From positions 672,001 to 736,000 of the forward strand of contig CP000066.1 in NCBI GenBank assembly GCA_000002445.1: DNA of 64,000 bases, given 5' to 3'. Source of the stretch: Trypanosoma brucei. Taxonomy: Eukaryota. Below the pieces are notes generated by a model. The model ran no database searches. It was not told the DNA's origin and saw only the letters and a program-made list of their open reading frames with translations. Numbering within the stretch: the stretch's first letter is position 1; each line of letters begins with the position of its first letter. A program made the position numbers and the translations under genes. Positions 7,159-33,919 of the stretch are shown in pieces.

Positions 7159-8754
7159 TCAACTCCGAAGGGATGTGTCAACTACCAGTACTATGGCCCG
7201 GTCACACATGCCGTAGAATGAAAGGCTCTGCAGCTCATTATCCAGTTGTGTCGGTGCCTCTACCACTCCAGCATCACCTGACACGAAGGACAAATGCTGA
7301 TGGGACGGAGCCACGCTATACACTGCACGCACAAGGGCCTTCAACTTCCCAACTGACATTGAGCTTGGCACTCTCTTGTGTGTGTCCTCGAAACCGTCGC
7401 ATCGGAGGACTATGTTCAGCATCATGTGCATGGTACCATCGTGACTTGCCGTCTCACCTTCGCGGTAGATCACTGTGATAACATCCTTATGCTTCTCTCG
7501 CAGAACATCGAGTAGGGGATATCGCAATGTTTCTTGAGTGACTTTACTCTGACTCCCATCTTGTGCCTCTCCCACCTGCTGTTTTTGCTCTGCAGCCATG
7601 CCTCGCTGGATGTAAAATATCTCTGAGTCCATCCGTTCCTTTGCCCGTACTTGACCTCTGTTCAACGTTGTGATACTCGGGAGCGATGCAACAACGTACA
7701 TGCGGCCGAGTGTCTCATTCCATTGCGGGAATATAGCACTATACGTGATGCGGAATGTGGTTAAGTGGGGACAGAGGTATCGCACCGCATCCAGTGTGCA
7801 TGCATCTGTGATGGTTGGATTCTCATTCAAGCACAGGAGCTCAAGTGGTTGCAGATACGCGTAATCCACGAGGGATCCGTCGCTGGTGTCCCCATCACCA
7901 CGTTTATTACCGCCTCCGTGAGGTACGATGGAAGCACAGGCACGTGTAATGCTGAGATTCGGCATCCGATTACTGGTCAGAAATAACCGTTTCAGGCCGG
8001 GAAACGCTGTGCCTATCGATTCCTGCAAGCCGCTCTCTAAACCCCACGACGACAATTCGTTCTGCGCAAGGCTAAGTGTATTAACCGCGGGAAACCAACC
8101 ACTCTTTATATCATTACCACTGTTGTTATCATTCTTGTTAGCTTCGTGAAGGATGCGATGAGCAGTTTTTTCCTCGTTGTCATCCACAAAGAGGGCAAGT
8201 CGTTTGATGCTGTTGTTGTCTAAGTGCAACTCCTCAAGCAGGGGTAGTTGTACAACGGCCCGTAGTTGCCATATGGATTGCACGCCAACATGATTTAGCA
8301 CCAGCTTTCTCAGGTGTGGCGCCACAAGAAGCGACTCAAAGGGAGAAGCAGAAATCTCTGCAGTCCCCACAGGAAACAACTCGGGGCTATGGGAAAGCTG
8401 AAGGACTTTCAGGGCCGGGAGATGTTGAGCCATGCGCCCCACTTCCCTTATAGTTAGCTGAAAGTTCTCCGACAGATCGACCTCCTCCAATCGGTGCAAA
8501 GCCGCTTGGGCAAGTTCACCAGTCGTACTCTCCGCAACGGTAATGTTCATGCCGCGCAGCACAACATGCACAAGTTTTGAGTGATCCGCCTGCTTCTGTC
8601 GAGTTTTCTCCATCCCAACAAGCTCCCACTTCTTGTTGCGTCGACGCGAGGCCTCACCTACGAGGAAAGATTCGGCGCTGTACGCCGCACTGTCATCGGG
8701 CGCACCATACCGCTCGCGCACGGCGTCCATGAAACTGACTTCCGGACTCGCCAT
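7159..8754 (-). CDS. Leucine-rich-repeat protein with a C-terminal ubiquitin-like domain: tubulin-specific chaperone E-like (TBCEL-type, no CAP-Gly).
   Basis: The track start is GTG at 8823. The residues SFFFLLRAL there are a translated polypyrimidine tract (8778-8798). The ATG is at 8754 (MASPEVSFMDAVRERY...). There are multiple LxxLxLxxN LRRs (LEEVDLSENF..., LKVLQLSHSP..., LEELHLDNNSI..., LNTLSLAQNEL...). The C-terminal roughly 90 aa (VITVIYREGE...VGKLKALV...LSFYGMCDRAIVLVV) form a ubiquitin-like fold, as in TBCE/TBCEL. Confidence 0.65.
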   Translation of the reverse strand: MASPEVSFMDAVRERYGAPDDSAAYSAESFLVGEASRRRNKKWELVGMEKTRQKQADHSKLVHVVLRGMNITVAESTTGELAQAALHRLEEVDLSENFQLTIREVGRMAQHLPALKVLQLSHSPELFPVGTAEISASPFESLLVAPHLRKLVLNHVGVQSIWQLRAVVQLPLLEELHLDNNSIKRLALFVDDNEEKTAHRILHEANKNDNNSGNDIKSGWFPAVNTLSLAQNELSSWGLESGLQESIGTAFPGLKRLFLTSNRMPNLSITRACASIVPHGGGNKRGDGDTSDGSLVDYAYLQPLELLCLNENPTITDACTLDAVRYLCPHLTTFRITYSAIFPQWNETLGRMYVVASLPSITTLNRGQVRAKERMDSEIFYIQRGMAAEQKQQVGEAQDGSQSKVTQETLRYPLLDVLREKHKDVITVIYREGETASHDGTMHMMLNIVLRCDGFEDTHKRVPSSMSVGKLKALVRAVYSVAPSHQHLSFVSGDAGVVEAPTQLDNELQSLSFYGMCDRAIVLVVDTSLRS

Positions 8755-8777
8755 TACCGTGGTAAAAACGGACAATG

Positions 8778-8798
8778 CCCTCAGTAAGAAAAAAAAAC
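8778..8798 (-). promoter_or_regulatory. Polypyrimidine tract immediately upstream of the TBCE-like gene.
   Basis: The minus strand reads gtttttttttcttactgag, with an AG then the ATG at 8754. The 5' UTR is very short. Confidence 0.45.
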
Positions 8799-10252
8799 TT
8801 TGTGGCCGAGTTCCGGCGGACACGAGATGTGTGCACGAAATTAGGACTTCTATCGGTGCCTGTTCCTACAGTTATATACCAACAAAACCAGGAAAAAGAA
8901 GAATGCGCGGTTCCCCAAAGGAAGAGGAAAATATATACGGTAATGACATACAAACATACAGGTACATGTCAGTGGATACACGTTTGCAGTTGAGCGGCTT
9001 TGTAAGAAAGGAATCAACAGGTCAAGGAATAGTGAAGAGGAAATATGAAGAGGGAGGACACAAGTTAACACATAGAGACGGCACTCCAGCACAAGTTAAA
9101 AGACGATTGGCAGAACCCTGCGTGCCGAGTACTGGCTTGTTGTTGTAGTTTTTGTTCCGTATCCCCGCCCCTTCCTGCATGTTTGGTGGTGTAAACAGAC
9201 GTGTGTGCGTATTTTCCCTTTACACGCTTATCGCAGCGGAAGGATATGCAAAAGCAAAGAACGACGGCACAAACAACCAAACAATTTGGCGATTTAAGAA
9301 ATGAAAGAAACGAAAGAGACAAAGTGTCTTCTCCCCTTTTAGTCACTGGGTAGTTTGAAGTGAAAAAGTTTTTCGTATATGTACATTTACTTAAACCTCC
9401 GTACCACGTAAGCAGGAACAACAAGAAGGATACATCGATAAAAAGTAACGCTAGCAAAGGAAAACGAAGCAGTTTATGGTGAGAACAAAAAGGACTAATC
9501 AGCTAGAACTAATGCCCACCACAACACGAAAGAAGACAAAAAAAACTGCATCTCTGCCCGAGTGAATAGAAAATACCTCGCGTATTGATGGAAATGCACA
9601 TGTACTCCTCCCGTACACCAATTGTACTTCACCCCATATGCCCACACAAACACACTAGCAGGCTTATACATGCGTATATATATATACACGCATATGCGTC
9701 GATGTACCTGGTGTGTGTTTCTCATGTGCACAACCTTATGAGCGTATCAACGCGCACCCTGCTCACTTTCTGGGAAACGGTGAGTCACGGTCAGTTGCAG
9801 ACACACCCATATAAACATGCACATAACAAACTATTGCTTACTGGGATCGCTCTCTTTTCACCACTAGACGGTCTCAGCAACGACCTGTTATGGCGTGAAC
9901 GCATTTCGCACGATGAAAACAAATGAACAAACTTGACACAAACAATAAGACTAGCGAGAGGGGGAATGTAATGGAACTTTTCCGATACTTTTTTTTCATC
10001 GGAAGTCAATCAAAGTAATAACAACGAGTGGCCCCCTCTTCTGTTCCGCACTTCAACGTACCCCGCTCCCTCAACTTCATGGGAAAAGATAAGTTAAAGG
10101 GAGGAAGAGAGAGGGGGCTAGTAACTGAGTTAACCCTGGGAACGAGGGCGGAAAGCAACCTCCCGTAATCCCCTTCAGCATACATATTTCTTCGCTCTTT
10201 CTCCCCGTTCCACGCAGGTGGCGAACAGCGTTTGCTTTATTAGAGACATTAT

Positions 10253-13200
10253 TTACGTGTTCCCAACACCCTCCAAGCTTCCCAGTAGCCGCGCGCCGCC
10301 CGAATGACTGTTGAAGGTGAAGTCCATGAAGTGTGGTAGAGCCGTGTTAGCACCTGTGAACTCGGTGCTTTCCATTTTGTGCGAGACGCTATTCTCAGCA
10401 TTACTATCAGAGTTTTGGCCGCTACCCAATGTGGCACAGAATGGTAAACAGAATTCACTCCCCTGCGTTATAAAATTGTGTGACGCCACCGAACTGCGAT
10501 TGCTGTTGAAGTCGTCGTACTGTCTCGACTCTCGGTTAAGGTAGCCAGCCAATATCGGAGAGCGAATATCTGTCGAAGCCAACTCACCTCCTGCTTGATG
10601 GCTTTGCGATAGCACCCGCCGCGTGGCGACGGGTTGGTGACCGACAGGCGGTGGTCGACGCGAGTGATGGCCTACGGTTGGTGAAGAGGTACGTTGACAG
10701 ATCTCTTCCGCAACGCATCGACCCAAGGAGTTGTGCGGGGGGATTCCCGTACGGTTTAACAGCACCGCTCCACGCTTTTTTGACCTACTGGGCACATAAT
10801 CGTCCACGTCGTACGCCACACCCGTAAGTGTATCGGGTAACTCTGCCGCCGGGTGATATACCATCTCAGTAGCCTTACCGCACTCCGTTGCTGAAGTGGA
10901 GTAAGTTGTTCTAGATGAAGAAGAGGCCACAGATGCGTTGAACTTAGGCGATAGACACACACCCCTTACGGAACGTCGTTGACCTTCCTCTCCCACTTGC
11001 TGAACCTCTTCCGCAAGTTTCGTTTCACATTTCGTGGGGGTACACACTGGCCTTTGGTTGTCCTCACCACCATCAACATGGCTGCCCACGTTGACGGTGG
11101 TTCCCAAAGGCGAACCTAAAGCTACCGTCGATGTTGAAAACCCATTGCGAATCCGATCCTCCACCCACTCCATAGCCATCTGCTCCGGAGTCCGAACGTC
11201 CTCTGCACTTGGACCCGAAGAATGCCCCATATCTTTCCTCTTATATGGTTCGGACGGGAACCCCTCTGCAGATGTTGACGTCACCGCGTTAGGTGTTTGT
11301 GGGGCCGACACTGACCCAAAGAAGTCAATCCGCCTCCCTAATTTTGGTTCGCAGTTCGGCTCGTTTGTTTCCTCCTCCTCCCCGAAGTCCGGCTCAGGGG
11401 TGGTGTTGCACTCTGATATCGCCGACAACACCAATCTTTCCCTGGGGCAAACAAGTGGCGTGTGAGAACTTTCTTTCATCCCTTTGAATTCTTCCTCCTC
11501 TTCCACACCGCCTGGAACAATGTCTAAAGGGAATGCTCGAGCCCCTTCTGTTGAAAAGGATACAGAGGCGCTCTGCTCTACCAGCCGGCTCCTCGCTGAA
11601 TTGGTGCGGAGGTCATTATAACGAGAGTGCCGCTTGCGAAGCCCTCGCTGTTGATCGGCCACCCGCTTGCCTGTGGCCGTCACAGCGTGGGGGAAATAAC
11701 GCAGATCATCTGCAGCTCGGAGACGTGGAACGTACGGCGGTTTGATGCCTCCCGACAGAAATAGTTCCCGCCATTCTGCGGGCCGCTGAATTGGGAAACG
11801 GTGTAGGAAATCTTGCGCGAACGGTGCGCCCGGTGGTCTGACAACCTCCGGGTCCGAGGTTCCTTTGGTGTCACTACGACAGCTTCGGCTCGCGACACTT
11901 GCCCTTCTGAGTGAACGGAAACTAGCCAACGGCAAGCCCATCAAGGGGAAAGCTTGGTCCAATGTTGTGTCCGTAGCGTCGCTGACATGAGGTAAGCAAG
12001 AGGTGGCATTACAACTAAGCGTCGACCCACCGGAATTCCTCTGGCCGCAACTGACAATGGATGTTTTCCTCGTGCAGTACAGCTGCGAAGTAGCGTAGGG
12101 ACATAAGAAGAAGGGATGTTCCAAAACACGCTCACCGCAAAGCCGTTTTTCGGGCGACCGCTGAAGTAATGCAAGAATCAAATCCTTCAGTAATGTACAT
12201 GCCTCTGTCAGCTCTTCTGTTGCGTGTTCCGTGAAGGCGTCGCTACTCTCGAGTGACACGGACCCCACAGGAAGAGGGTGGTGTTCCGTGGAGCTCGCGT
12301 TCGCCCTCTCACCACTGGGTGCCGACCACGTTTCCTCAAAACACGTAGCCGTATCATATACGCTCAACGTCTTTTCTGTGACTTCTGAATGCTCAACCAG
12401 ATCTGGGAGGGGAAACGTCCAGAGGGCGGGACCAGATGGTCGCAACGGCTGCCCAGCACTGTCGCCACCGGGCCACGGAGCCGTTGCATGTTGTCTACCA
12501 TCACCCCGCTCGACGAGAGAACCGCGGAACGGCCGGTGGGTGCCGTACTCCTCCTCATACTGGCATGTCAATTGTGCAACACGCGCCGCCAACTCGAGCT
12601 CAGTGATCATGAAATCCCCGGGCTGCAGCTGAACATCGGTTTCAACGATGGATTTCATTATATCGTACCGGTTATTTGCATCGAATGGTCTGCGCCCGTT
12701 TGCCATTTCGAACAGCATGCAACCAAAGCTCCACCAGTCAATACGAGAGTCATGTGCCTCACCCAACAGCACTTCTGGACTCATGTAAAGCGAAGTGCCG
12801 GCATGGAAATCTGTTCGGGTCCCCGAGTCAATCGTACCACCCGCACCCGGAACGCCGCGGTATTTGGCTACACCAAAGTCTGCAAGCACAACATTGCCAT
12901 CAGATGTCATCAGAACATTCTCCGGTTTGAGATCACGGTACACAAAACCCTGCGTGTGCAGATACTGCAAAACTAGAGCGATTTCGATGGCACAAAATAC
13001 TATAATCCGAATAGGCGTGCGACTATCATCGGGGGCGAAGCGCATGGAGGAGAAACGTCCTGGTGAGGGCGGCTGCCTTAAGGGTGACTCGGAAACAATA
13101 ACTTTGCTGTCCGCTAATCCTGACCCTTTCCGTTGGTTGAACCCCGCGCCTCGATGCAATTTACGACGCATTTCCCTAATCCACGGCTTCGTCTCCAGGA

Positions 13201-14038
13201 ACACATACAAGTCACCACCCTGTGCGAAGTCAAGGACGAGGTAAAGGCATGACTGGCTCTGAAATGCCTGGTGAAGGTTGACTAAAAAGGGATGCTTGAA
13301 TGATGCAAGCAGATGCCGCTCGGTGAATGTACATTGGACGCAGTCCTCATCCCACACCTTCTTCTTGGATATCTTCTTGACAGCATAAAATGTATGCGTT
13401 TCTCTATGTCGCGCCAACGTTACCTCAGCAAAGGTGCCCTTACCTATATACGCCAGCAGTTCATAATCCCTAAGTGATCGAGCGGCAGAAGAAGAGTCAC
13501 TCTTGTAGATGGTCCAACTCGGCGATGAGCCTCGGCCCAACCCACTTAAGGCTACATCTTCCCATCCACTCACTTTGAGCGGGGTGTTCGTCAAACTCTT
13601 CACCTCCGAATCCTTATCGTCTTCTACGGATCTATCAGCCGCATCCGCAGGAATAGGAAGGGGTGCTTGACGCTTGCTATGCCCACTAAGGGAAATATCA
13701 CTCCTACTGATTTCACCCAGAAATTCCTCGTGCCCACCATCAATAGAGCCTAGAAGAAAAGTGAAAAAGGCATCGTCATCACCATCCCGTGGTAAGTTTC
13801 CCTCGGAAATACTGCTCTCTGGGGCCGTTGCGCCCGGTGATTTTTTGGTCGTCTCCCCCAGATCCCGGTGGCCTTCATTTAACCTCATTGGGGTGAAGGC
13901 ACTTGGTTGTTGTACATCCGCCTCCGGGGCTCCAGTTTCCTTCATTTTGGTGGTTGTGAGCACATCTGTACTTCCCTTTGCCTTAGACGCGCCTCTCATC
14001 CACGAAAACGCACTCGCTACTCGTTCATAGAAATTCAT
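10253..14038 (-). CDS. Serine/threonine protein kinase, AGC-like, about 1260 aa, with inserts in the catalytic domain and a roughly 600-aa low-complexity C-terminal tail.
   Basis: The track start is TTG at 14089; the ATG is at 14038 (MNFYERVASAF...). Kinase motifs present: IGKGTFAEV (Gly loop), YAVKKI (Lys), YRDLKPENVLM (catalytic loop), DFGVAKY, SPE, DWWSFGCMLFEM, and subdomain XI PEKRLCGERVLEHPFF. There is an insert of about 50 aa before the catalytic loop and about 170 aa between subdomains X and XI. Confidence 0.85.
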   Translation of the reverse strand: MNFYERVASAFSWMRGASKAKGSTDVLTTTKMKETGAPEADVQQPSAFTPMRLNEGHRDLGETTKKSPGATAPESSISEGNLPRDGDDDAFFTFLLGSIDGGHEEFLGEISRSDISLSGHSKRQAPLPIPADAADRSVEDDKDSEVKSLTNTPLKVSGWEDVALSGLGRGSSPSWTIYKSDSSSAARSLRDYELLAYIGKGTFAEVTLARHRETHTFYAVKKISKKKVWDEDCVQCTFTERHLLASFKHPFLVNLHQAFQSQSCLYLVLDFAQGGDLYVFLETKPWIREMRRKLHRGAGFNQRKGSGLADSKVIVSESPLRQPPSPGRFSSMRFAPDDSRTPIRIIVFCAIEIALVLQYLHTQGFVYRDLKPENVLMTSDGNVVLADFGVAKYRGVPGAGGTIDSGTRTDFHAGTSLYMSPEVLLGEAHDSRIDWWSFGCMLFEMANGRRPFDANNRYDIMKSIVETDVQLQPGDFMITELELAARVAQLTCQYEEEYGTHRPFRGSLVERGDGRQHATAPWPGGDSAGQPLRPSGPALWTFPLPDLVEHSEVTEKTLSVYDTATCFEETWSAPSGERANASSTEHHPLPVGSVSLESSDAFTEHATEELTEACTLLKDLILALLQRSPEKRLCGERVLEHPFFLCPYATSQLYCTRKTSIVSCGQRNSGGSTLSCNATSCLPHVSDATDTTLDQAFPLMGLPLASFRSLRRASVASRSCRSDTKGTSDPEVVRPPGAPFAQDFLHRFPIQRPAEWRELFLSGGIKPPYVPRLRAADDLRYFPHAVTATGKRVADQQRGLRKRHSRYNDLRTNSARSRLVEQSASVSFSTEGARAFPLDIVPGGVEEEEEFKGMKESSHTPLVCPRERLVLSAISECNTTPEPDFGEEEETNEPNCEPKLGRRIDFFGSVSAPQTPNAVTSTSAEGFPSEPYKRKDMGHSSGPSAEDVRTPEQMAMEWVEDRIRNGFSTSTVALGSPLGTTVNVGSHVDGGEDNQRPVCTPTKCETKLAEEVQQVGEEGQRRSVRGVCLSPKFNASVASSSSRTTYSTSATECGKATEMVYHPAAELPDTLTGVAYDVDDYVPSRSKKRGAVLLNRTGIPPHNSLGRCVAEEICQRTSSPTVGHHSRRPPPVGHQPVATRRVLSQSHQAGGELASTDIRSPILAGYLNRESRQYDDFNSNRSSVASHNFITQGSEFCLPFCATLGSGQNSDSNAENSVSHKMESTEFTGANTALPHFMDFTFNSHSGGARLLGSLEGVGNT

Positions 14039-14261
14039 CTTGAGGTAAACGTTTCGAGTGTACCTAAACGTCGCACACGTCGAATCCAAATAAATGCAAA
14101 TTTGCTTTTTTTTCTTTCGTTATTTTTCCTCCCCCTTCAGTGGTGATGAGCGGCAAACTGACCAGTAAGCTTCCACTGCAGCAGATTGTTCCAACAATGA
14201 TGATAATGGTAATAGTAACAATGGGAAACCAACGCGCACGGTTACCCAAAACCACACAGCC

Positions 14262-16181: not shown

Positions 16182-16842
16182 CTCTCTGTCTAACACCGCT
16201 GCCTGCGCCCGTGCACAAATGCGAGTACAAATACACGAAAAAAAAAAAGGAGAGGCCTCCAAAGTTCCAGTTCTGTTTCCTTTGCCTTTATTTCCACTAG
16301 GTCAAGGTCACGACTTTGCTGTTAACGCCTGTGCGACTTTAAGTGTCAAACGCTGTCGCTTGTTGCTATCAGACAAGCCACACCACTTTCGCTTCCAGTG
16401 TAGGCCTACGACAGCGCTAACTTCAGCCAAAGCGACAAAACATATATAAACATACGTACGTGTATATATAAGAAAGACAGTACGAAGATGATCATAACAG
16501 CAATAAAAACAGTGAGAATGATAAACAAGTACCAGTTTGTGAACAACTAGCTGTGAAAACAGAGCTCTGACGGTTAAATAGTCTGAGAAACGAGGGAAAA
16601 TGTACTGACGTGCGGTCCTGGCAACAGTCACTTGCATACACATCAATACATCTGTATTGAAATATTTCATGTCCCCTTCCAAGTCGCACAGTACCAACAC
16701 GGAATCGAAACGTTAAATTTACAAACAAAAAAGGCAGTAATAAGGGTAAAGGTGAGAAAGGGAGCACTCACGCGACTGCTGCAGAGAGGGAAAGAATTTC
16801 CCGCCCTTCAGACGAGGCGTCGCTATTTTTCCTTTTCTTTGT

Positions 16843-16859
16843 TTGTGTGTATACGTGTG

Positions 16860-16895
<36 letters not shown>

Positions 16896-16896: not shown

Positions 16897-17179
16897 ATAA
16901 GGGGGAAGGAATATTGCCGGTAACGTTAATAGGAAAGGAAAAGAATTTTTAAAAAAGCAGTTAAAAAAGGAAAGAAGTAGAGCGCGTGGTATATTTAGCG
17001 CAAATCGAATAGGCATTATTTGAGCCACAAACCCTCTGCTGCCTGATAACCTCATTCCCCTCGAAAAGAAAGAAAAAGAAGGAAAGGAAAAAAGGAAAAG
17101 GAACGATATACATCTTACCACGTCAAGGGGGAAAACATACATCATTATATAAGTGCATATACATACTTCCACGTATATT

Positions 17180-17181
<2 letters not shown>

Positions 17182-17212
<31 letters not shown>
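17182..17212. repeat. (TA)n microsatellite of about 30 bp.
   Basis: tatatatatatatatatatatatatatat in the intergenic region downstream of the PFK2 gene. Confidence 0.9.
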
Positions 17213-17653: not shown

Positions 17654-17678
17654 ATATATATATATATATATATATATT
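17654..17678. repeat. (AT)n microsatellite of about 24 bp.
   Basis: atatatatatatatatatatatat, immediately 3' of the PFK2 CDS stop (17701). Confidence 0.9.
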
Positions 17679-17700: not shown

Positions 17701-20700
17701 TCATTCGCTCGGCTGCAGTGGGCGGTCACAGGGCTTTACCAGCTGGTGTACGGTTATATCACCCTTCACGCTAATTTCTACTACAGCGTGTGAAGGGAGG
17801 CGCAAAGCTGGAGCCATTTCAGGCAACGCATCAGCAAAGAATGCGAGAACCCCTTGCGCTGGTACGGATGAGGCGACAACAAACACCGGACCACGCACCC
17901 GCATGACGGCCATAAGTGCCGGCTCCAACCGAACATTTACCTGCCTGCAACTCTCACCGTTGGGAAACTGCACGCAGTAAGAAAGACGAGGGTCCGCCCC
18001 GTTGGGAACATGGAGAAAGCGGCGAAGGCCCTCCGCACATATATTAGCAGCGTCTGATGCGCATTCTGCCGTCCCCAGTAACGGTGGCTCCTCTTGCTGA
18101 GCCTTCTCTTTTCCAGGGTCAGCAACTTCATCATCCGCTGCGATATAGGAACCACTCCCCATCGGCGAGCCTGCGTAGAGAAGCTTGCAGAGTTTTGAGT
18201 ATCTGATCCGTACCTGCTTAACTGTCCGACCGCAAAACCGCCCAAAATTGATTCTGTCGAGACCGGGAAGTGGACAAAGCAACTCCGCCAGCGGCACGCA
18301 AAAGCCGCCGCATCCGCGAGCCCCCCTCGGGAAACTGCTGCCATCGTCGCTGCTGTCCGGCTCTAAAGCCTGTTCCAGTGGCCGCAGTGTATTCATAACG
18401 TTCGGATTTGTTCCGTGAAGCACGACCATGTTGGGTGCATCCCGCTCCAATATAAACCGCTTTAGGGCATCCGCAAACTTCTCACCAAGAGGGGTGAGGC
18501 GGTCATCCCCGCCGTATATGTGTTTCCTGTCACCCACGGTTTCCCCGGGAACCGCAATATAAATGGGATGAGCAACAGGGTGAAGATTTAATAAAAAGAA
18601 CGAGATGAGACTTGCTAGTCCGCAGGGAATCTTGTGAAGAATGACATGATGCTTTGCATTGATAATGCGAATGAAACTAATGCCTTCATCCGCATCCAGC
18701 TGCTCGTACACCTTTTCATACTCCGCAATCCGAGAGTAAAATGCGGAGATCACCTCACCCGCGTCCTTGACATTCTTAAAGTCATCATTACCACACTTTG
18801 CACGTAGTATGTTCTCTGTGATGAGGTTTAAATCATTGCACACTGACTCAATGAATATTACTCTACAGTTGATGTTGTGTTTCTTTGCTTCCTGTTGCAA
18901 GCACTCCAACAAATACTTCCTGCGAGCCTTCGTGGTGTTTGTTGCGTCAAACACGCCACAGGCCACCCGATGGTGGGCAATAAAATGAATAAGATCTCCA
19001 AAAGCAAGAGTTGCCACCTTGTCACGCATTTGCTTCGCCTGCAAATTTTGCGGATCATAGAAATCTGCACTGCACGTACCCTCCACACCGAGGAGCCTAC
19101 GGCGGTAGTTCCCGACATTAAACACACGACAGGGAACTCCCTTCCAATTAAGATAACGTGCGATCCGTCGGCCAATAAACGACTTCCCCCGTCCCGGTAA
19201 CCCCACCATACAAACAATGAGGGAAACCGCATCCGACACAGTCGTATAACTTGAGGACATGTTGGCAATGTCGTCCACTGCATTAGGTAATCTCCCTTCC
19301 GCCCCTTGATCCCTCACCCTGTTCAAGCAATCTCTCGCACGGTATTGTGCCACCATATCAGGGGGGAGGGCGGAAAAGAGAACGCTATCGCCCGGTGACA
19401 CGGCCAGCGGTGCCTTGGATCCCCATCCACGCGTCCCTTTCGTATCCTTCACTGTAGACTGCGACGCGGATCCCTTTTTGCAGCTGGGAAGTGAAATGGA
19501 CGGCATCGCTGGCGAATTTCCACCACATGAAGGTCCTTCTGTTGCCGCAGCGCCACATGTGGGCGTGCCGTGATAATTTGGGGAAATAGAGCCGTTACCA
19601 CGGCTTGAATGAACGTGATGATGTCGCTGCTCCTTTTTCATCTGAGCATGCTTCGTCACCGCCACTAGAAGGCGGCACACACCACTATGACGGTTCTCCG
19701 CAGCCCAATCAAGCGGCGTACGACCCGTGTTGTCGATTGCCGTAATGTCGGCACCAAACGATATGAGAACGCGCACTACGGATTCGTTTCCTCCGAGCGC
19801 CGCCACGTGAAGCGGGGTGCAACCATTGTAATCCCGTTGGTTGACATCTACTAGTTTCCGTTCTAGCAAATAGTGCAGCTCCGATGAATTACAGGCGCGG
19901 ACAAGAGCAAATATATTCCACGCAGAGACTTCACGTTGAAGCCAACCGAGTTGAACCTGCAAGAAGCCCTTGCGTCTCTGCAGTTCGGCTATGAGAGCGT
20001 TGCGACACTTCTCACGCGCCGCTAATGGATCATTAGGATCTGGAATGCTGAGCTGGGGCAATAGTAACCCCTTCCTCTTGTGGCAGCAGGAAGGCGACGC
20101 GCGGCGTTCATCGAATTTGCACATATCCTCCTCAGGGCATGATAGGCACCGCGAGTGATGAGGCATCTTGTCTATTGGCAATAACACCTCTCCTTTACTC
20201 CTTAGTCCTCGTCCAACATTCCGCACACAAGATTCTAGAGGGAGTGACATGAACCTTCCACGTTTGCACATACCCAATTGCTGTGAAGAGGCTACGGACA
20301 CACCATCGCTATCCCCTGAGGTTGCATGGCCCAAATTCCCCAGTAACGACGCCCCAAACTCTGAAACCCCGCATCCCCCCACGCTTGAAGCCGCACCACT
20401 GGCCAAAAACGGCGAGGCGTGGCTGCTACTCCTTAGTGAGGGGCTCCTGTGTGATGGACTTGCGCCATAAATATGAACCCATTCCTGTTCATTGGAATCT
20501 TGTGAAGAAGGCGGGTTCCTTCTCACATCTACTCCCATAGGTCCTCCTCTTCCCTCTGCCGCATCCACTTCTTCCTCTTTCCCTCTTCGTCCAGGGGTAA
20601 CTGAAATAACTTCACATGGCGGTCGTCTCCCCTCATCGGTGGAGTCCGCCGCGGCCTCATTTCCTTCTTCTCCTCCTCTTCCTCCTATTTTTGTTGCGGT

Positions 20701-20772
20701 CGTTGCTGTTTTAGAGGTCGTTTCCAACAACTTTTCCGACAACGCGCAACAAACGTGATTTTGTGGATTCAT
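17701..20772 (-). CDS. 6-phosphofructo-2-kinase/fructose-2,6-bisphosphatase family protein with N-terminal ankyrin repeats. The phosphatase catalytic motif is degenerate, so it is probably a monofunctional PFK-2.
   Basis: The track start is TTG; the ATG is at 20772. Ankyrin repeats: NGCTPLHVAALGGNESVVRVLISFGADITAIDNTGRTPLDWAAENRH (DNA about 19650-19900). The PFK-2 P-loop VGLPGRGKSF is at about 19176-19205. In the FBPase-2 domain, IYIAVPGETVGDRKHIYGGDDRLTPLGEKFADALKRF aligns to canonical IYLCRHGESELN...GGDSGLS.RG..FA.ALRKF, with RHGES changed to VPGET (DNA 18538-18552). Confidence 0.85.
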   Translation of the reverse strand: MNPQNHVCCALSEKLLETTSKTATTATKIGGRGGEEGNEAAADSTDEGRRPPCEVISVTPGRRGKEEEVDAAEGRGGPMGVDVRRNPPSSQDSNEQEWVHIYGASPSHRSPSLRSSSHASPFLASGAASSVGGCGVSEFGASLLGNLGHATSGDSDGVSVASSQQLGMCKRGRFMSLPLESCVRNVGRGLRSKGEVLLPIDKMPHHSRCLSCPEEDMCKFDERRASPSCCHKRKGLLLPQLSIPDPNDPLAAREKCRNALIAELQRRKGFLQVQLGWLQREVSAWNIFALVRACNSSELHYLLERKLVDVNQRDYNGCTPLHVAALGGNESVVRVLISFGADITAIDNTGRTPLDWAAENRHSGVCRLLVAVTKHAQMKKEQRHHHVHSSRGNGSISPNYHGTPTCGAAATEGPSCGGNSPAMPSISLPSCKKGSASQSTVKDTKGTRGWGSKAPLAVSPGDSVLFSALPPDMVAQYRARDCLNRVRDQGAEGRLPNAVDDIANMSSSYTTVSDAVSLIVCMVGLPGRGKSFIGRRIARYLNWKGVPCRVFNVGNYRRRLLGVEGTCSADFYDPQNLQAKQMRDKVATLAFGDLIHFIAHHRVACGVFDATNTTKARRKYLLECLQQEAKKHNINCRVIFIESVCNDLNLITENILRAKCGNDDFKNVKDAGEVISAFYSRIAEYEKVYEQLDADEGISFIRIINAKHHVILHKIPCGLASLISFFLLNLHPVAHPIYIAVPGETVGDRKHIYGGDDRLTPLGEKFADALKRFILERDAPNMVVLHGTNPNVMNTLRPLEQALEPDSSDDGSSFPRGARGCGGFCVPLAELLCPLPGLDRINFGRFCGRTVKQVRIRYSKLCKLLYAGSPMGSGSYIAADDEVADPGKEKAQQEEPPLLGTAECASDAANICAEGLRRFLHVPNGADPRLSYCVQFPNGESCRQVNVRLEPALMAVMRVRGPVFVVASSVPAQGVLAFFADALPEMAPALRLPSHAVVEISVKGDITVHQLVKPCDRPLQPSE

Positions 20773-21755
20773 CAACGTTTTCTTTACTTTGCTTTAATAT
20801 TGTTGTTATTACTGCTGTTATTTGTTATCCCCCACTCTTCAGTTCTGCCCTTACAGAGCCCGCTGTCCTTACGCGACTATTGTTTTCGGAACTATGCGGT
20901 ACCTCTTCCTCTCCTCTTTTACTTTCTTTATTTTATTTTTATTTCCTTCGCTCCGCGTATAGGGGAATATTATGGGGCAATAAAAATAACAACTGTTATT
21001 AATAACTAATAACTAACAATAATAATGACTGGTAACTTGATAAGACACGCCGTTCCTTGACCTGCTATTTTTCCAGATTCTTCTCCCCTGGCTTAGCTTA
21101 ACACTTCTTTTCTTTACTTCAGAAGGGCAAAAAAAAAAAAAAGAACGCAGAAGAAATAAGTGGAATAACAATGATGTAAGCAGTGATTAATAGTAATGAG
21201 CGAAAAAAAAAAACCGTGGCACCGCACTAACCTGAAAGTATATTTAATTAACCTCGCCCCAAGTCGCTTCAATCAAACACCACCAACGTGATGAATAGGA
21301 GAAGGGAAAAAACAAATGAAGAGACGAAATGAAAGAAACATGTGCAGGCGCGCAAACATATTAATAACGCACGCGAACACTTATATTTAGGTGTTCATGT
21401 TTTACCTAAATTTTTGCTTATGCTTTCACGATCATTTGTACATATGTTTAAGATGGTAAACGTTGCGCGTGCTCAACTTAACAGCATTTTCTACAAAAAA
21501 ATAATAATAGTAGAAACACCAACAAAGAATGGCGTCACTTTTCTTTTCTTTTTTTTTAAAAAAAGGAAAACGCAGTGTCCCTCCTCCTTTTTTTTCGTGA
21601 GCGTACCTGAAAAAGGCGATTAAAAAAAAACAAAACAAAAATCTCAGTATAGACAATCGACATTAGTACGAAGTTCGCAAAAAAAACCAAAAAAATAATA
21701 TATATATATATATATACATATGTATGATCTTTTTCTTTAAAAAAAAGATCTAAAT

Positions 21756-31303: not shown

Positions 31304-33919
31304 TCAACCGCGTTTTGTGTTTCGTTTGTTCGCCTTCCTACCGCGGCCCTTCACTTTTCGAGGCGCATGCCGCACGTATCCGGGAACCTTCGCTGACGGA
31401 TCGAGTGGCTTGTAATTTCGGTTGAAGCGCGACTTGTTGAATTCCTTCGCTGCGGCCTTCTTTCGTGCACGTGCGGAAAGCTCTTTGCCGGACCCTCCCT
31501 TGCTTCCACTTTTTGCTCCAGTGAGCAGCGCACGGTCCTTTGCTCTGCGACTCTTGTCAGGTTCTTCGTTGTCATCATCGTCATCATCACCGCTGTCATC
31601 CTTGAAGCGAATTGGCACCGAGTTACACGTTCCAGCTGTGCGTCTCGTCACGAGATCTCCAACTACGCGGAATGCCTCGGGATGCTGAATAAGGAAATCC
31701 ATCAGACTTACGCCGAGGACACCGTCGAAACGTGCGTTAAAGCGGAACCACCTGCCGACAAGATTTCCAACATCACCAATGTACATGGGCCGAGGCTTGC
31801 GTGGCATCGCCATCAGAATTTCTTCCACTGCCTGCTGCTGTAGCTGCTTCACCCTCAGTTCACGATTCATCACTATTGGGAGATCCACCCATGGCAATGA
31901 AACTGATTCTCTTACGACTGATCCAGTGCGTACCGGCAGCATGCGCCGTAGCTCTCGCAACTCGTCTGCGCTCGGGGTTGTCTTTCGAGCGGATAAGGTG
32001 GGCTTTTTCTTTAGAGCTGGTTTACCCTCCTGAAGCAAAAAGCAATTCGAAAGAAAGCTGCGTAGCGGGCCCACATCACTTTGAAGCGTTAATGACCACA
32101 AGGTACGCTTCTCCACGTCCTCCACTGCGAGAGAGTATCCCGCAACAGCATCATAGAGAAAATGCATAAGAACAACAAGGTACTTTGCAAACGAGGGACC
32201 AAGCTTAGTTCCATAGCGACCCTCTAACCTTAGCACAGCGTCCTTGCGCGCTTTGTCCATTTGTATCAGCGCCTCGGGCCCCTTCAAAGTTTTCTTGACA
32301 CCCCACGCAGCGCCCCATGCATCAATAACACCGACGGTTGTATACGGATATAAATAGCAGAGCGTCGCTTGCAGAGCCAGGTTTGGTGCCGAACTGTAGT
32401 GATTAAAGTACTTTTTCCTCTCGAACTCAGACGGAGGAGGGAATTTACATTCGGTCGCGTCGCCCTCACCGCTGTGTGCGTTATCCTTGAACCCATCGAC
32501 AGTACTTCCACTCTCAGCTGAAGCAGCAGCGGTTGTGTTGCAGTGCTGTGTCCCGTCCTCAGCAACTATCGGCTGAATTAATCCTATTACTCGAGTTAAT
32601 GCGCGTATAGCCATGTCCTTCAAGGTAGCGCCCTGGCTCGCCTTAAAGCGAGAAGAATGATCCACAAGCTCACGGAGTACATACGCCAGAACATGGTGCG
32701 CATGGGCCACACTCGCCGCTCCAAGAGAAGCTAAAAAACTGTTGGCAAGAACCTCCTCAAACGCACTGCGTTCCGTGCTGTAGAGCCGGACGAGATGCTG
32801 CAGTGCTCCCCGAAGGTCGCCTCGCGCAAGGGACGTCGACACGTTGTTGTCGAAGCGAAACAGTCTTGCTTTCTTAGTTTTTTTTTCGTCATCTCCCTTC
32901 TCACCCTGATTGGTGTTTGTGACTCCGGAAGCATCGAATAAGGAATGCAACTGAACGGGAACATGCAATAGTGGTTTCACAAAATGCGTAATCTCCTCCT
33001 CCTCCTCGCCCGGAAGTTCTTCTCTCATCGACTCCCCAGTTTCCCTGCTATACAGAAAAAAAAGGGCACGCATATGCACCGACTGGAATTTACCTGCATC
33101 CTTCACACCAGGAAGCGTGACCAAAAGATTGTTTGGCGTTGAAAACCACGCCGCTGCTGAGCCATCACACAAATTGCCCACTATTTCCTGCGTCGTTATT
33201 ACCACTCGCCGCTCGCCTCCAAAGTAGTTGAAAGGGACTACTTCAGGGCTTGATGCCTCAATAGATTTCACGACAAGCTGCATTAAATGACCAAGACCGC
33301 TGCAGCGACAGGCCCAAGCCATGGCGTGCGCTCCAAGCGCATCGGCGGTTATTACCAGCACCTTCAATGGCTCGCTATCGGCCTCATCCCGCAATTGTGG
33401 TTTGTGCAATAACTCAGTCACTATATGACTTGCGGCTGCATGTGCAGCTGACCAAAATGCAACTGATCGCTCACTTGAAGCGCCACCAATGATGGCACGG
33501 GGGACACCAGGTAAAAGTTGCGGTTCCACACGCCCCTCATCATCTCCCCTCGGGAGCGGCGTCCACGGTCCTACGACAGGTCTGGCCGGCAGCTTATCGT
33601 CCTTTTTATTTTCCTCCTGCTCCCTCCCGGGAATTTTTTCTCCTTTCCTCTTCTTTTTACGTAACTGCGTTTCATCGCCGTTTGTCGCAGCAGCGCTGTT
33701 TCCGTTAGCCGTATCCCCCTCATTGCCGGTAGTTGCACCACGTGGTTGTTTGGCCCTTACTACCCCACTCTTATGGAAGGTACGGCGGTGCTGAAGCCAG
33801 TTCTTTGCGAAGCATTCCTGACCACAAAAAAAGCCCCGATCGGTAATAAGTTCCGCCTGACATAACGGGCACTGGAAGGATGACGCAGACTCATTGCAAC
33901 CGTCACACTGACGCTGCAT
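31304..33919 (-). CDS. Zinc-finger (MYND/C6H2-type, N-terminal) domain protein, 871 aa, with a basic Lys/Arg-rich C-terminus.
   Basis: ATG confirmed at 33919. The N-terminus CDGCNESASSFQCPLCQAELITDRGFFCGQECFAKNWLQHRRTFH has a Cys6-His2 MYND-like spacing. It is followed by a Lys-rich linker, a large alpha/beta region of unknown family, an acidic DDDDDNEE stretch, and a basic tail. Confidence 0.7.
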   Translation of the reverse strand: MQRQCDGCNESASSFQCPLCQAELITDRGFFCGQECFAKNWLQHRRTFHKSGVVRAKQPRGATTGNEGDTANGNSAAATNGDETQLRKKKRKGEKIPGREQEENKKDDKLPARPVVGPWTPLPRGDDEGRVEPQLLPGVPRAIIGGASSERSVAFWSAAHAAASHIVTELLHKPQLRDEADSEPLKVLVITADALGAHAMAWACRCSGLGHLMQLVVKSIEASSPEVVPFNYFGGERRVVITTQEIVGNLCDGSAAAWFSTPNNLLVTLPGVKDAGKFQSVHMRALFFLYSRETGESMREELPGEEEEEITHFVKPLLHVPVQLHSLFDASGVTNTNQGEKGDDEKKTKKARLFRFDNNVSTSLARGDLRGALQHLVRLYSTERSAFEEVLANSFLASLGAASVAHAHHVLAYVLRELVDHSSRFKASQGATLKDMAIRALTRVIGLIQPIVAEDGTQHCNTTAAASAESGSTVDGFKDNAHSGEGDATECKFPPPSEFERKKYFNHYSSAPNLALQATLCYLYPYTTVGVIDAWGAAWGVKKTLKGPEALIQMDKARKDAVLRLEGRYGTKLGPSFAKYLVVLMHFLYDAVAGYSLAVEDVEKRTLWSLTLQSDVGPLRSFLSNCFLLQEGKPALKKKPTLSARKTTPSADELRELRRMLPVRTGSVVRESVSLPWVDLPIVMNRELRVKQLQQQAVEEILMAMPRKPRPMYIGDVGNLVGRWFRFNARFDGVLGVSLMDFLIQHPEAFRVVGDLVTRRTAGTCNSVPIRFKDDSGDDDDDDNEEPDKSRRAKDRALLTGAKSGSKGGSGKELSARARKKAAAKEFNKSRFNRNYKPLDPSAKVPGYVRHAPRKVKGRGRKANKRNTKRG

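What the first reader, a model, noticed from the sequence alone, without database searches (positions are those of the whole stretch)
17701..20772. Ankyrin-repeat PFK-2/FBPase-2 fusion with a substituted FBPase catalytic RHGE motif
The protein combines N-terminal ankyrin repeats, an intact 6-phosphofructo-2-kinase core (P-loop GLPGRGKSF) and a fructose-2,6-bisphosphatase-like domain. The Arg-His-Gly-Glu signature, which carries the phospho-acceptor His, reads Val-Pro-Gly-Glu (IYIAVPGETVGD against canonical IYLCRHGESELN). The flanking FBPase-2 residues (GGDDRLTPLGEKFADALKRF) are conserved. This predicts a kinase-active, phosphatase-dead regulator of Fru-2,6-P2, the activator of trypanosomatid pyruvate kinase. 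Ankyrin-containing and apparently monofunctional PFK2/FBPase2 isoenzymes are known in trypanosomatids. Here the His-to-Pro substitution can be read directly from the DNA (18538-18552).
Basis: partly seen in the sequence, partly recalled or inferred. Interest (0 to 1): 0.55.

Follow-up and report, generated by a model that had tools for sequence, protein, structure and literature searches.

The report
Known kinase-only trypanosome PFK-2 enzyme

Summary
Window 17701..20772 (minus strand) encodes a 1023-aa protein. It has a disordered N-terminus, a long helix, ankyrin repeats, a complete 6-phosphofructo-2-kinase domain and a C-terminal fructose-2,6-bisphosphatase-like domain. In that last domain the RHGE motif reads VPGE (V741, P742; codons 18550-18552 and 18547-18549).

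The alignment to human PFKFB3 is gap-free across this site. The loss goes well beyond the histidine. All 11 kinase catalytic or substrate residues are kept (one Thr-to-Ser change). All 11 canonical phosphatase residues are replaced, including the catalytic Glu (R840) and the second His (S968). The dead domain still folds like FBPase-2, and it is conserved among trypanosomatids at least as well as the kinase domain.

The protein is 100% identical to XP_843864.1/Q582Y3 of T. brucei brucei TREU927. It is 1018/1023 identical to GenBank AAS77611.1, deposited as "6-phosphofructo-2-kinase [Trypanosoma brucei]". Monofunctional, ankyrin-bearing PFK-2/FBPase-2 isoenzymes of trypanosomatids were described by Chevalier et al. 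(FEBS J 2005). The same loss of the RHG histidine recurs in fungal and oomycete homologues.

Verdict: real feature, correct interpretation, already known, low interest.

The parts
17701..20772 (-). Complete coding sequence (1023 aa plus stop codon) of T. brucei 6-phosphofructo-2-kinase with ankyrin repeats and a pseudo-FBPase-2 domain
   Evidence: ORF list and translation. Exact match to XP_843864.1/AAZ10305.1/Q582Y3.
20038..20772 (-). N-terminal region aa 1-245: poorly conserved, predicted disordered. Contains an RxRxxS motif (RGRFMS, aa 171-176).
   Evidence: 10-29% identity to orthologues. pLDDT below 50 for aa 1-235. Motif found.
19897..20028 (-). Long predicted helix aa 249-292 leading into the ankyrin repeats; possibly a coiled coil or an N-terminal cap (inference)
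   Evidence: DSSP helix 249-292, block-mean pLDDT about 69-91. 36-69% identity to orthologues.
19657..19896 (-). Ankyrin repeats (about three; two canonical repeats at aa 316-348 and 349-378)
   Evidence: Pfam Ank_2, Ank, Ank_4, Ank_3 and Ank_5. DARPin and ankyrin hits in PDB. 62-87% identity to orthologues.
19258..19602 (-). Linker aa 391-505: poorly conserved, mostly predicted disordered
   Evidence: 9-27% identity to orthologues. pLDDT below 50 for aa 392-397, 399-483 and 488-499.
18577..19239 (-). 6-phosphofructo-2-kinase domain aa 512-732 with all catalytic and substrate-binding residues
   Evidence: Pfam PF01591, 206 bits. PDB phmmer E 1e-56 to PFKFB3. 11/11 residues kept.
19177..19203 (-). 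Walker A / P-loop GLPGRGKSF (aa 524-532; K530, S531)
17743..18567 (-). Pseudo-fructose-2,6-bisphosphatase domain aa 736-1010: histidine-phosphatase fold without catalytic residues
   Evidence: AF2 model with pLDDT 86 and pTM 0.86. Foldseek TMt 0.84-0.87 to the rat liver FBPase-2 domain 1tip/1fbt. All 11 canonical residues replaced.
18538..18552 (-). VPGET in place of RHGE(N/S): V741 (GTT) and P742 (CCC) replace the Arg and the phospho-acceptor His
18253..18255 (-). R840 at the position of the catalytic Glu (E322 in PFKFB3, E327 in rat liver numbering): LDRINFG against LNEIDAG
17866..17871 (-). S968-S969 at the position of the second catalytic His and the following Gln (H387-Q388 in PFKFB3): VVASS against VICHQ
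18286..18366 (-). Insertion 1 in the pseudo-phosphatase domain (aa 803-829): variable, low confidence
17992..18177 (-). Insertion 2 in the pseudo-phosphatase domain (aa 866-927): variable, low confidence

Best explanation
The gene encodes the monofunctional 6-phosphofructo-2-kinase of Trypanosoma brucei. The kinase domain transfers the gamma-phosphate of ATP to the 2-hydroxyl of fructose 6-phosphate, making fructose 2,6-bisphosphate, the allosteric activator of trypanosomatid pyruvate kinase. The C-terminal domain descends from a fructose-2,6-bisphosphatase but can no longer bind or hydrolyse the product. It is kept as a folded partner of the kinase domain. Breakdown of the regulator is left to separate paralogues with active FBPase-2 domains. 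The ankyrin repeats and the disordered N-terminus most likely provide protein-protein contacts and regulation.

Shown here: the domain architecture, the residue pattern, the fold, the conservation and the identity with the database entry. Inferred: the enzymatic activities, the structural role of the dead domain and the role of the ankyrin repeats.
For: Pfam 6PF2K scores 206 bits and the ankyrin families match. The alignment to PFKFB3 is gap-free across the RHGE site. Kinase residues are kept 11/11 and all 11 canonical phosphatase residues are replaced, and the same pattern holds in all nine trypanosomatid orthologues examined and in 16 environmental relatives.

The AF2 model of aa 501-1023 has pLDDT 86.3 and pTM 0.86. 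It matches whole PFKFB1-4 chains (E 1e-34, TMt 0.80-0.86) and the isolated FBPase-2 domain (TMt 0.84-0.87). Pseudo-phosphatase segment 928-1010 is 65-89% identical to orthologues, against 58-79% for the kinase domain.

The protein is identical to XP_843864.1/Q582Y3. It shares a 90% cluster with AAS77611.1, '6-phosphofructo-2-kinase [Trypanosoma brucei]'.

PMC8483307 states that Fru-2,6-P2 activates pyruvate kinase and that the paralogue Tb3 (Tb927.10.4520) has FBPase-2 activity, citing Chevalier et al. 2005. PMC10917290 states that T. brucei PFK is insensitive to Fru-2,6-P2.
Against: No enzymatic assay can be run here, and the primary paper (Chevalier et al. 2005, PMID 16008555) is not in the held library. 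Its experimental results are therefore cited from memory and through secondary citations. Thr48 of the P-loop is Ser here; this is conservative and is shared by canonical RHGE-bearing homologues such as P0106.
Confidence: 0.9

Rival explanations
1. The dead phosphatase domain has acquired a new job beyond scaffolding. It could act as a regulatory, ligand-sensing or partner-docking pseudoenzyme module that, with the ankyrin repeats, controls kinase activity or location. This would add to the kinase-only reading, not replace it.
For: The segment aa 931-960 (SYCVQFPNGESCRQVNVRLEPALMAVMRVR) is the most conserved 30-residue block of the whole protein (0.88). Segment 928-1010 is more conserved than the kinase domain. 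New residues, including C933 and C942, are conserved in Trypanosoma orthologues and in some environmental relatives.
Against: All basic and aromatic residues that hold the sugar phosphates are gone, so binding of Fru-6-P or Fru-2,6-P2 in the old pocket is unlikely. Strong conservation can also be explained by packing against the kinase domain, as in the mammalian enzyme (whole-chain TMt 0.80-0.86). There is no direct evidence for any ligand or partner.
Confidence: 0.2
2. The protein is still bifunctional, with a residual or alternative-mechanism fructose-2,6-bisphosphatase activity, for instance direct attack by water as in His-to-Ala mutants of the rat enzyme.
For: From memory, a His256Ala mutant of the rat testis enzyme keeps part of its activity; its structure, 2bif, appears. 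The fold is retained.
Against: The loss is not limited to the nucleophilic His. The catalytic Glu, the second His and every phosphate-binding Arg, Lys and Tyr are also replaced. Pfam His_Phos_1 falls below its threshold. Separate FBPase-2 paralogues exist.
Confidence: 0.03
3. Both halves are inactive and the protein is a pure scaffold.
For: From memory of Chevalier et al. 2005, one of the two PFK-2-like T. brucei paralogues was predicted to be inactive because metal-ligating residues are substituted.
Against: In this protein the equivalents of the metal and ATP ligands (K530, S531, D609) and all Fru-6-P-binding arginines are present. The depositors named the near-identical clone 6-phosphofructo-2-kinase. 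The kinase residues are invariant across 38 aligned homologues.
Confidence: 0.04
4. The VPGE reading is a sequencing error, a strain-specific mutation or a misalignment.
For: None found.
Against: The same residues occur in TREU927, in T. b. gambiense DAL972 and in an independently cloned T. brucei gene. [LV][PS]GE is found in T. congolense, T. vivax, T. cruzi, T. rangeli, T. grayi, T. melophagium, Phytomonas and a 1614-aa unnamed database sequence (P0010, presumed trypanosomatid). The alignment around the site is gap-free.
Confidence: 0.01

Closest known systems
T. brucei 6-phosphofructo-2-kinase, GenBank AAS77611.1 / UniProt Q6PY95. This is one of the four PFK-2/FBPase-2 isoenzymes of Chevalier et al., FEBS J 2005;272:3542, most likely the one they called Tb1 (label from memory).
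   Same: 1018/1023 identical, same length, same VPGE. The window protein itself is the TREU927 reference allele XP_843864.1/Q582Y3.
   Different: Five amino-acid polymorphisms between strains, none in a catalytic position.
Mammalian bifunctional PFKFB1-4 (e.g. human PFKFB3, PDB 2AXN; rat testis 1BIF)
   Same: Same two-domain core and fold (E 1e-34, TMt 0.80-0.86). Kinase catalytic and substrate residues identical apart from Thr48Ser.
   Different: RHG His, catalytic Glu, second His and all phosphate-binding residues replaced. Two insertions in the phosphatase-like domain. About 500 extra N-terminal residues with ankyrin repeats. Only 26% identity.
Fungal monofunctional PFK-2 enzymes (S. cerevisiae PFK26/PFK27; Myceliophthora PFK2-C)
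   Same: Same outcome: kinase kept and FBPase-2 domain inactivated by substitutions in or around the RHG motif, with synthesis and breakdown of Fru-2,6-P2 divided among paralogues (PMC9721465). Yeast-like hits here carry T/A-N-GE in place of RHGE.
   Different: Independent losses. The yeast-like sequences still keep the second His and several Arg residues, whereas the trypanosome protein has lost everything. The fungal enzymes have no ankyrin repeats.
Environmental ankyrin-PFK-2 relatives P0061-P0076. Their organisms are not named in the database; a kinetoplastid or other euglenozoan origin is only a guess.
   Same: 41-53% identical over the aligned kinase plus pseudo-phosphatase region; BLASTP gives 37-50% over mostly 94-98% of it. 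Most carry ankyrin domains. Kinase residues are intact and phosphatase residues degenerate.
   Different: Shorter (505-869 aa), lacking the long insertions and the long N-terminus. Some keep the His (LHGE in P0061, P0062 and P0066) or have TNGE, which suggests stepwise decay of the site.

Membership tests
PFK-2/FBPase-2 (PFKFB) family | 6-phosphofructo-2-kinase domain (Pfam PF01591) above the curated cutoff | tested here: met
   206.2 bits against a cutoff of 27, profile positions 8-221 of 223
PFK-2/FBPase-2 (PFKFB) family | Walker A Lys and Thr/Ser, Walker B Asp, catalytic Lys and the Fru-6-P-binding Arg, Thr and Tyr residues of the kinase site | tested here: met
   K530, S531, R557, R558, R583, D609, T611, R617, K659, R681, Y685: 11/11 kept
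PFK-2/FBPase-2 (PFKFB) family | C-terminal domain with the histidine-phosphatase (FBPase-2) fold, fused head-to-tail to the kinase | tested here: met
   Foldseek TMt 0.84-0.87 to 1tip/1fbt and 0.80-0.86 to whole PFKFB chains, using a model with pLDDT 86. At sequence level Pfam His_Phos_1 is below threshold (15.7 bits against 21.7).
Bifunctional PFK-2/FBPase-2 (active phosphatase half) | RHG motif with phospho-acceptor His, catalytic Glu and second His, plus the phosphate-binding Arg, Lys and Tyr residues | tested here: not met
   V741, P742, D748, R840, V851, L865, S931, C942, S968, S969, Q973: all 11 canonical residues replaced
Bifunctional PFK-2/FBPase-2 (active phosphatase half) | Measured fructose-2,6-bisphosphatase activity | not testable with these tools
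   Needs an enzyme assay
Trypanosomatid ankyrin-containing monofunctional PFK-2 (Chevalier et al. 2005) | Identity with the described T. brucei gene product | tested here: met
   Exact match to XP_843864.1/Q582Y3. 1018/1023 identical to AAS77611.1, '6-phosphofructo-2-kinase [T. brucei]'.
Trypanosomatid ankyrin-containing monofunctional PFK-2 (Chevalier et al. 2005) | Ankyrin repeats N-terminal to the kinase domain, with the architecture shared by orthologues across Trypanosomatidae | tested here: met
   Pfam ankyrin families at aa 290-371. Orthologues in eight other Trypanosoma species or subspecies and two Phytomonas have the same precomputed domains.
Trypanosomatid ankyrin-containing monofunctional PFK-2 (Chevalier et al. 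2005) | PFK-2 activity of the protein | not testable with these tools
   I recall recombinant activity being reported, but the paper is not held. Only the depositor's name for the protein supports it here.

The most novel reading that the evidence does not exclude
The catalytically dead FBPase-2 domain is conserved more strongly than the kinase domain across trypanosomatids. It may not be only a structural remnant. It could be a repurposed pseudoenzyme module, for example an allosteric sensor or a docking surface working with the ankyrin repeats, that sets when and where Fru-2,6-P2 is made in the parasite.
Probability: 0.15. Interest if true: 0.45.

Novelty: already known. Interest (0 to 1): 0.12.

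Why it matters
Fructose 2,6-bisphosphate controls pyruvate kinase in trypanosomatids, and so the end of glycolysis, on which bloodstream T. brucei depends. The enzyme that makes it is therefore of metabolic interest and a possible drug target. The gene, its ankyrin repeats and its one-sided activity were described in 2005, and the protein is annotated in the reference genome. This finding therefore adds no new biology.

This analysis adds three modest points. The site-by-site count shows that the whole phosphatase active site is gone, not only the His. The dead domain keeps its fold and is under strong constraint. Environmental relatives show intermediate stages of decay (LHGE, TNGE).

Tried and rejected
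(1) I tried to read Chevalier et al. 2005 (PMID 16008555) and Rider et al. 2004 (PMC1133864). Neither is held, so their content is cited from memory and through secondary papers.

(2) I tried to recover the TriTrypDB gene ID and the labels of the four isoenzymes from the literature. Only Tb3 = Tb927.10.4520 and Tb4 = Tb927.8.1020 were found. Calling this gene 'Tb1' remains my recollection.

Neither protein search returned them, and I judged a third search unlikely to.

(4) The bacterial-type promoter and terminator scan around the gene gave no excess over shuffles (9 against 7.7, and 10 against 6.4). It is irrelevant for a trypanosome polycistron.

(5) I modelled the full-length protein to look at ankyrin docking. 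Only pLDDT and secondary structure are returned, so nothing can be said about domain packing.

(6) Sequencing error, strain-specific mutation and misalignment were considered and rejected.
Full report
**What is there.** The region 17701..20775 holds one long minus-strand ORF. Its first ATG is at 20772 and the protein is 1023 aa. Pfam finds three things:
- ankyrin repeats at aa 290-371 (Ank_2, E 9.5e-15);
- a 6-phosphofructo-2-kinase domain at aa 512-732 (206 bits against a cutoff of 27);
- a sub-threshold trace of the histidine-phosphatase family at aa 934-1005 (15.7 bits against 21.7).

The P-loop GLPGRGKSF is at aa 524-532.

**Is VPGE homologous to RHGE?** Yes. phmmer against all PDB chains aligns the C-terminal half to human PFKFB3 (E 1e-56). 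The stretch running from the last part of the kinase domain through 'iyiavpge' / 'iylcrhge' and 'ggddrltplgekfadalkrf' / 'ggdsglssrgkkfasalskf' contains no gaps. A second matched stretch aligns 'vfvvassvpaq' with 'vlvichqavlr', so the second catalytic His is also replaced.

**Site-by-site test of both active sites.** I used human PFKFB3 as the reference. My recalled sequence proved identical to chain 2axn_A over all 520 residues. The literature residue numbers all pointed to the expected residue types, except that PFKFB3 has Ser302 where other isoforms have Arg. The results below come from a MAFFT alignment of 38 sequences.
- Kinase residues K47, T48, R74, R75, R98, D124, T126, R132, K168, R189 and Y193 correspond to K530, S531, R557, R558, R583, D609, T611, R617, K659, R681 and Y685. 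That is 11 of 11 kept, with one conservative Thr-to-Ser change that some canonical enzymes share.
- Phosphatase residues R252, H253, N259, E322, Y333, R347, K351, Y362, H387, Q388 and R392 correspond to V741, P742, D748, R840, V851, L865, S931, C942, S968, S969 and Q973. None is kept.
- The position of Arg307 (rat liver numbering) is N791.
- The contrast is far from chance (Fisher p = 7e-7).

This wider loss matters. To my recollection, a His-to-Ala mutant of the rat testis enzyme keeps part of its activity (its structure, 2bif, is listed). Loss of the His alone would therefore be weak evidence. Loss of the whole site is strong evidence.

**Fold.** An AlphaFold2 model of aa 501-1023, built on a 39-sequence alignment, has mean pLDDT 86.3 and pTM 0.86. 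Confidence is low only in two insertions, aa 816-822 and aa 868-905 of the full protein. Foldseek against the PDB returns whole PFKFB3, PFKFB1, PFKFB2 and PFKFB4 chains first (E about 1e-34, target TM-scores 0.80-0.86). It also returns the isolated rat liver bisphosphatase domain (1tip, 1fbt; TMt 0.84-0.87 at 17% identity). The C-terminal domain is therefore a folded histidine-phosphatase-like domain without a catalytic site, i.e. a pseudo-phosphatase.

A full-length model shows the following:
- aa 1-235 and most of aa 392-499 are predicted disordered;
- a long helix spans aa 249-292 and runs into the ankyrin repeats;
- the two-domain core follows.

**Identity.** The exact protein sequence is in the public collection as XP_843864.1 / AAZ10305.1 / UniProt Q582Y3, '6-phosphofructo-2-kinase/fructose-2,6-biphosphatase, putative', from Trypanosoma brucei brucei. 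It lies on a 1,653,225-bp record, which I infer is chromosome 3 of TREU927. The same 90% cluster holds AAS77611.1 / Q6PY95, deposited as '6-phosphofructo-2-kinase [Trypanosoma brucei]'. That entry is 1018/1023 identical and also reads VPGE. Orthologues with the same domain content are found in T. b. gambiense (99%), T. congolense (60%), T. grayi, T. melophagium, T. vivax, T. cruzi, T. rangeli, T. conorhini and Phytomonas. All of those examined carry [LV][PS]GE at this site.

**Prior knowledge.** Chevalier et al. (FEBS J 2005;272:3542, PMID 16008555) described the four PFK-2/FBPase-2 isoenzymes of trypanosomatids. The paper is not in the held library, but several held papers cite it:
[quoted passage not shown] - PMC10917290 notes that T. 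brucei PFK itself is not affected by Fru-2,6-P2.

From memory, the 2005 paper reported three things. Each protein has at most one active domain. Two of the proteins carry ankyrin repeats. The PFK-2 candidate with intact metal ligands is the active kinase. The window protein has those ligands (K530, S531, D609), which fits that candidate.

**How ordinary is the loss?** Among the other homologues retrieved, the kinase residues are nearly always kept, while the RHG His is replaced repeatedly and independently:
- yeast-like sequences have T/A-N-GE;
- several oomycete paralogues have R-P or R-V;
- other protist sequences have R-S, R-A or R-V.

PMC9721465 documents monofunctional PFK2 and FBPase-2 enzymes in S. 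cerevisiae (PFK26, PFK27, FBP26) and in Myceliophthora. It also documents replacement of the RHG histidine. Splitting synthesis and breakdown of Fru-2,6-P2 among paralogues with one dead half is thus a well-known evolutionary pattern.

**What this analysis adds.**
1. The dead domain is under strong constraint. Segment aa 928-1010 is 65-89% identical to orthologues, against 58-79% for the kinase domain. The block aa 931-960 is the best conserved of the whole protein. By contrast, the N-terminus, the linker and the two insertions are at 5-37%. The simplest reading is that the kinase needs this domain as a folded partner, as in the mammalian enzyme. A new regulatory or docking role is not excluded.
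2. Shorter environmental relatives (P0061-P0076) are 41-53% identical over the aligned core in the multiple alignment. BLASTP gives 37-50% over mostly 94-98% of it, and most carry ankyrin domains. They show intermediate states: LHGE (Arg lost, His kept), TNGE, and Asp at the Glu position. This suggests stepwise decay of the site. Their source organisms are not named in the database, so their relation to trypanosomatids is unknown.

**Surroundings.** Of the 21 ORFs of 200 aa or more in the window, 19 lie on the minus strand. The two on the plus strand lie within longer minus-strand ORFs. This is what a trypanosome polycistronic unit looks like. The neighbours are unrelated to the finding: a protein kinase, an LRR/ubiquitin-like protein, a TatD-related protein and a zf-C6H2 protein. 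A polypyrimidine tract followed by AG lies about 345 nt upstream of the ATG and is consistent with a trans-splice acceptor (inference).

**Verdict.** The feature is the already described T. brucei PFK-2, so novelty is 'already known' and interest is low.

Noticed in passing
window 1-64000: 19 of the 21 ORFs of 200 aa or more are on the minus strand, and the two plus-strand ones lie within longer minus-strand ORFs. The whole window looks like one trypanosome polycistronic transcription unit.
   Followed up: partly
window 10253-14089 (-), 7159-8823 (-), 3209-5398 (-), 31304-33919 (-): The neighbouring ORFs encode a protein kinase domain protein, an LRR plus ubiquitin-like domain protein, a TatD-related protein and a zf-C6H2 (MYND-like, mRNA-binding) protein. 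Five other neighbouring ORFs have no Pfam match. None has an evident link to Fru-2,6-P2 metabolism.
   Followed up: partly
window 16840-16895, 17174-17212, 17654-17677, 21698-21725: There are dinucleotide microsatellites in the intergenic or UTR regions: (TG)28, (TA)19, (AT)12 starting 24 nt 3' of the stop codon, and (AT)14.
   Followed up: no
window 20245-20262 (-), aa 171-176: An RxRxxS motif (RGRFMS, followed by LP.ES) lies in the disordered N-terminus. It is shared with T. congolense (RGRYMSLPVES), and T. grayi has RSRAQSL. It could be a basophilic-kinase phosphorylation site, reminiscent of the regulatory sites of mammalian PFKFB enzymes. An RRAS motif at aa 223-226 is not conserved.
   Followed up: partly
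window 21117-21150 (-): A polypyrimidine tract (a run of T and C including 14 consecutive T) is followed by AG about 345 nt upstream of the ATG. It is a plausible trans-splice acceptor for this gene.
   Followed up: no
proteins P0061, P0062, P0066 (LHGE); P0063-P0065 (TNGE); P0075 (RQGE): These environmental PFK-2 relatives (several with ankyrin domains) show partly decayed RHG motifs and Asp or Glu at the catalytic Glu position. They look like intermediate stages between bifunctional enzymes and the fully dead trypanosomatid domain. Their source organisms were not identified.
   Followed up: partly
window 18253-18255 (-), aa 840: At the catalytic Glu position T. brucei has Arg, whereas other Trypanosoma orthologues have Ser, Thr or Asn and the environmental relatives mostly Asp. 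The site is free to vary once the function is lost.
   Followed up: no
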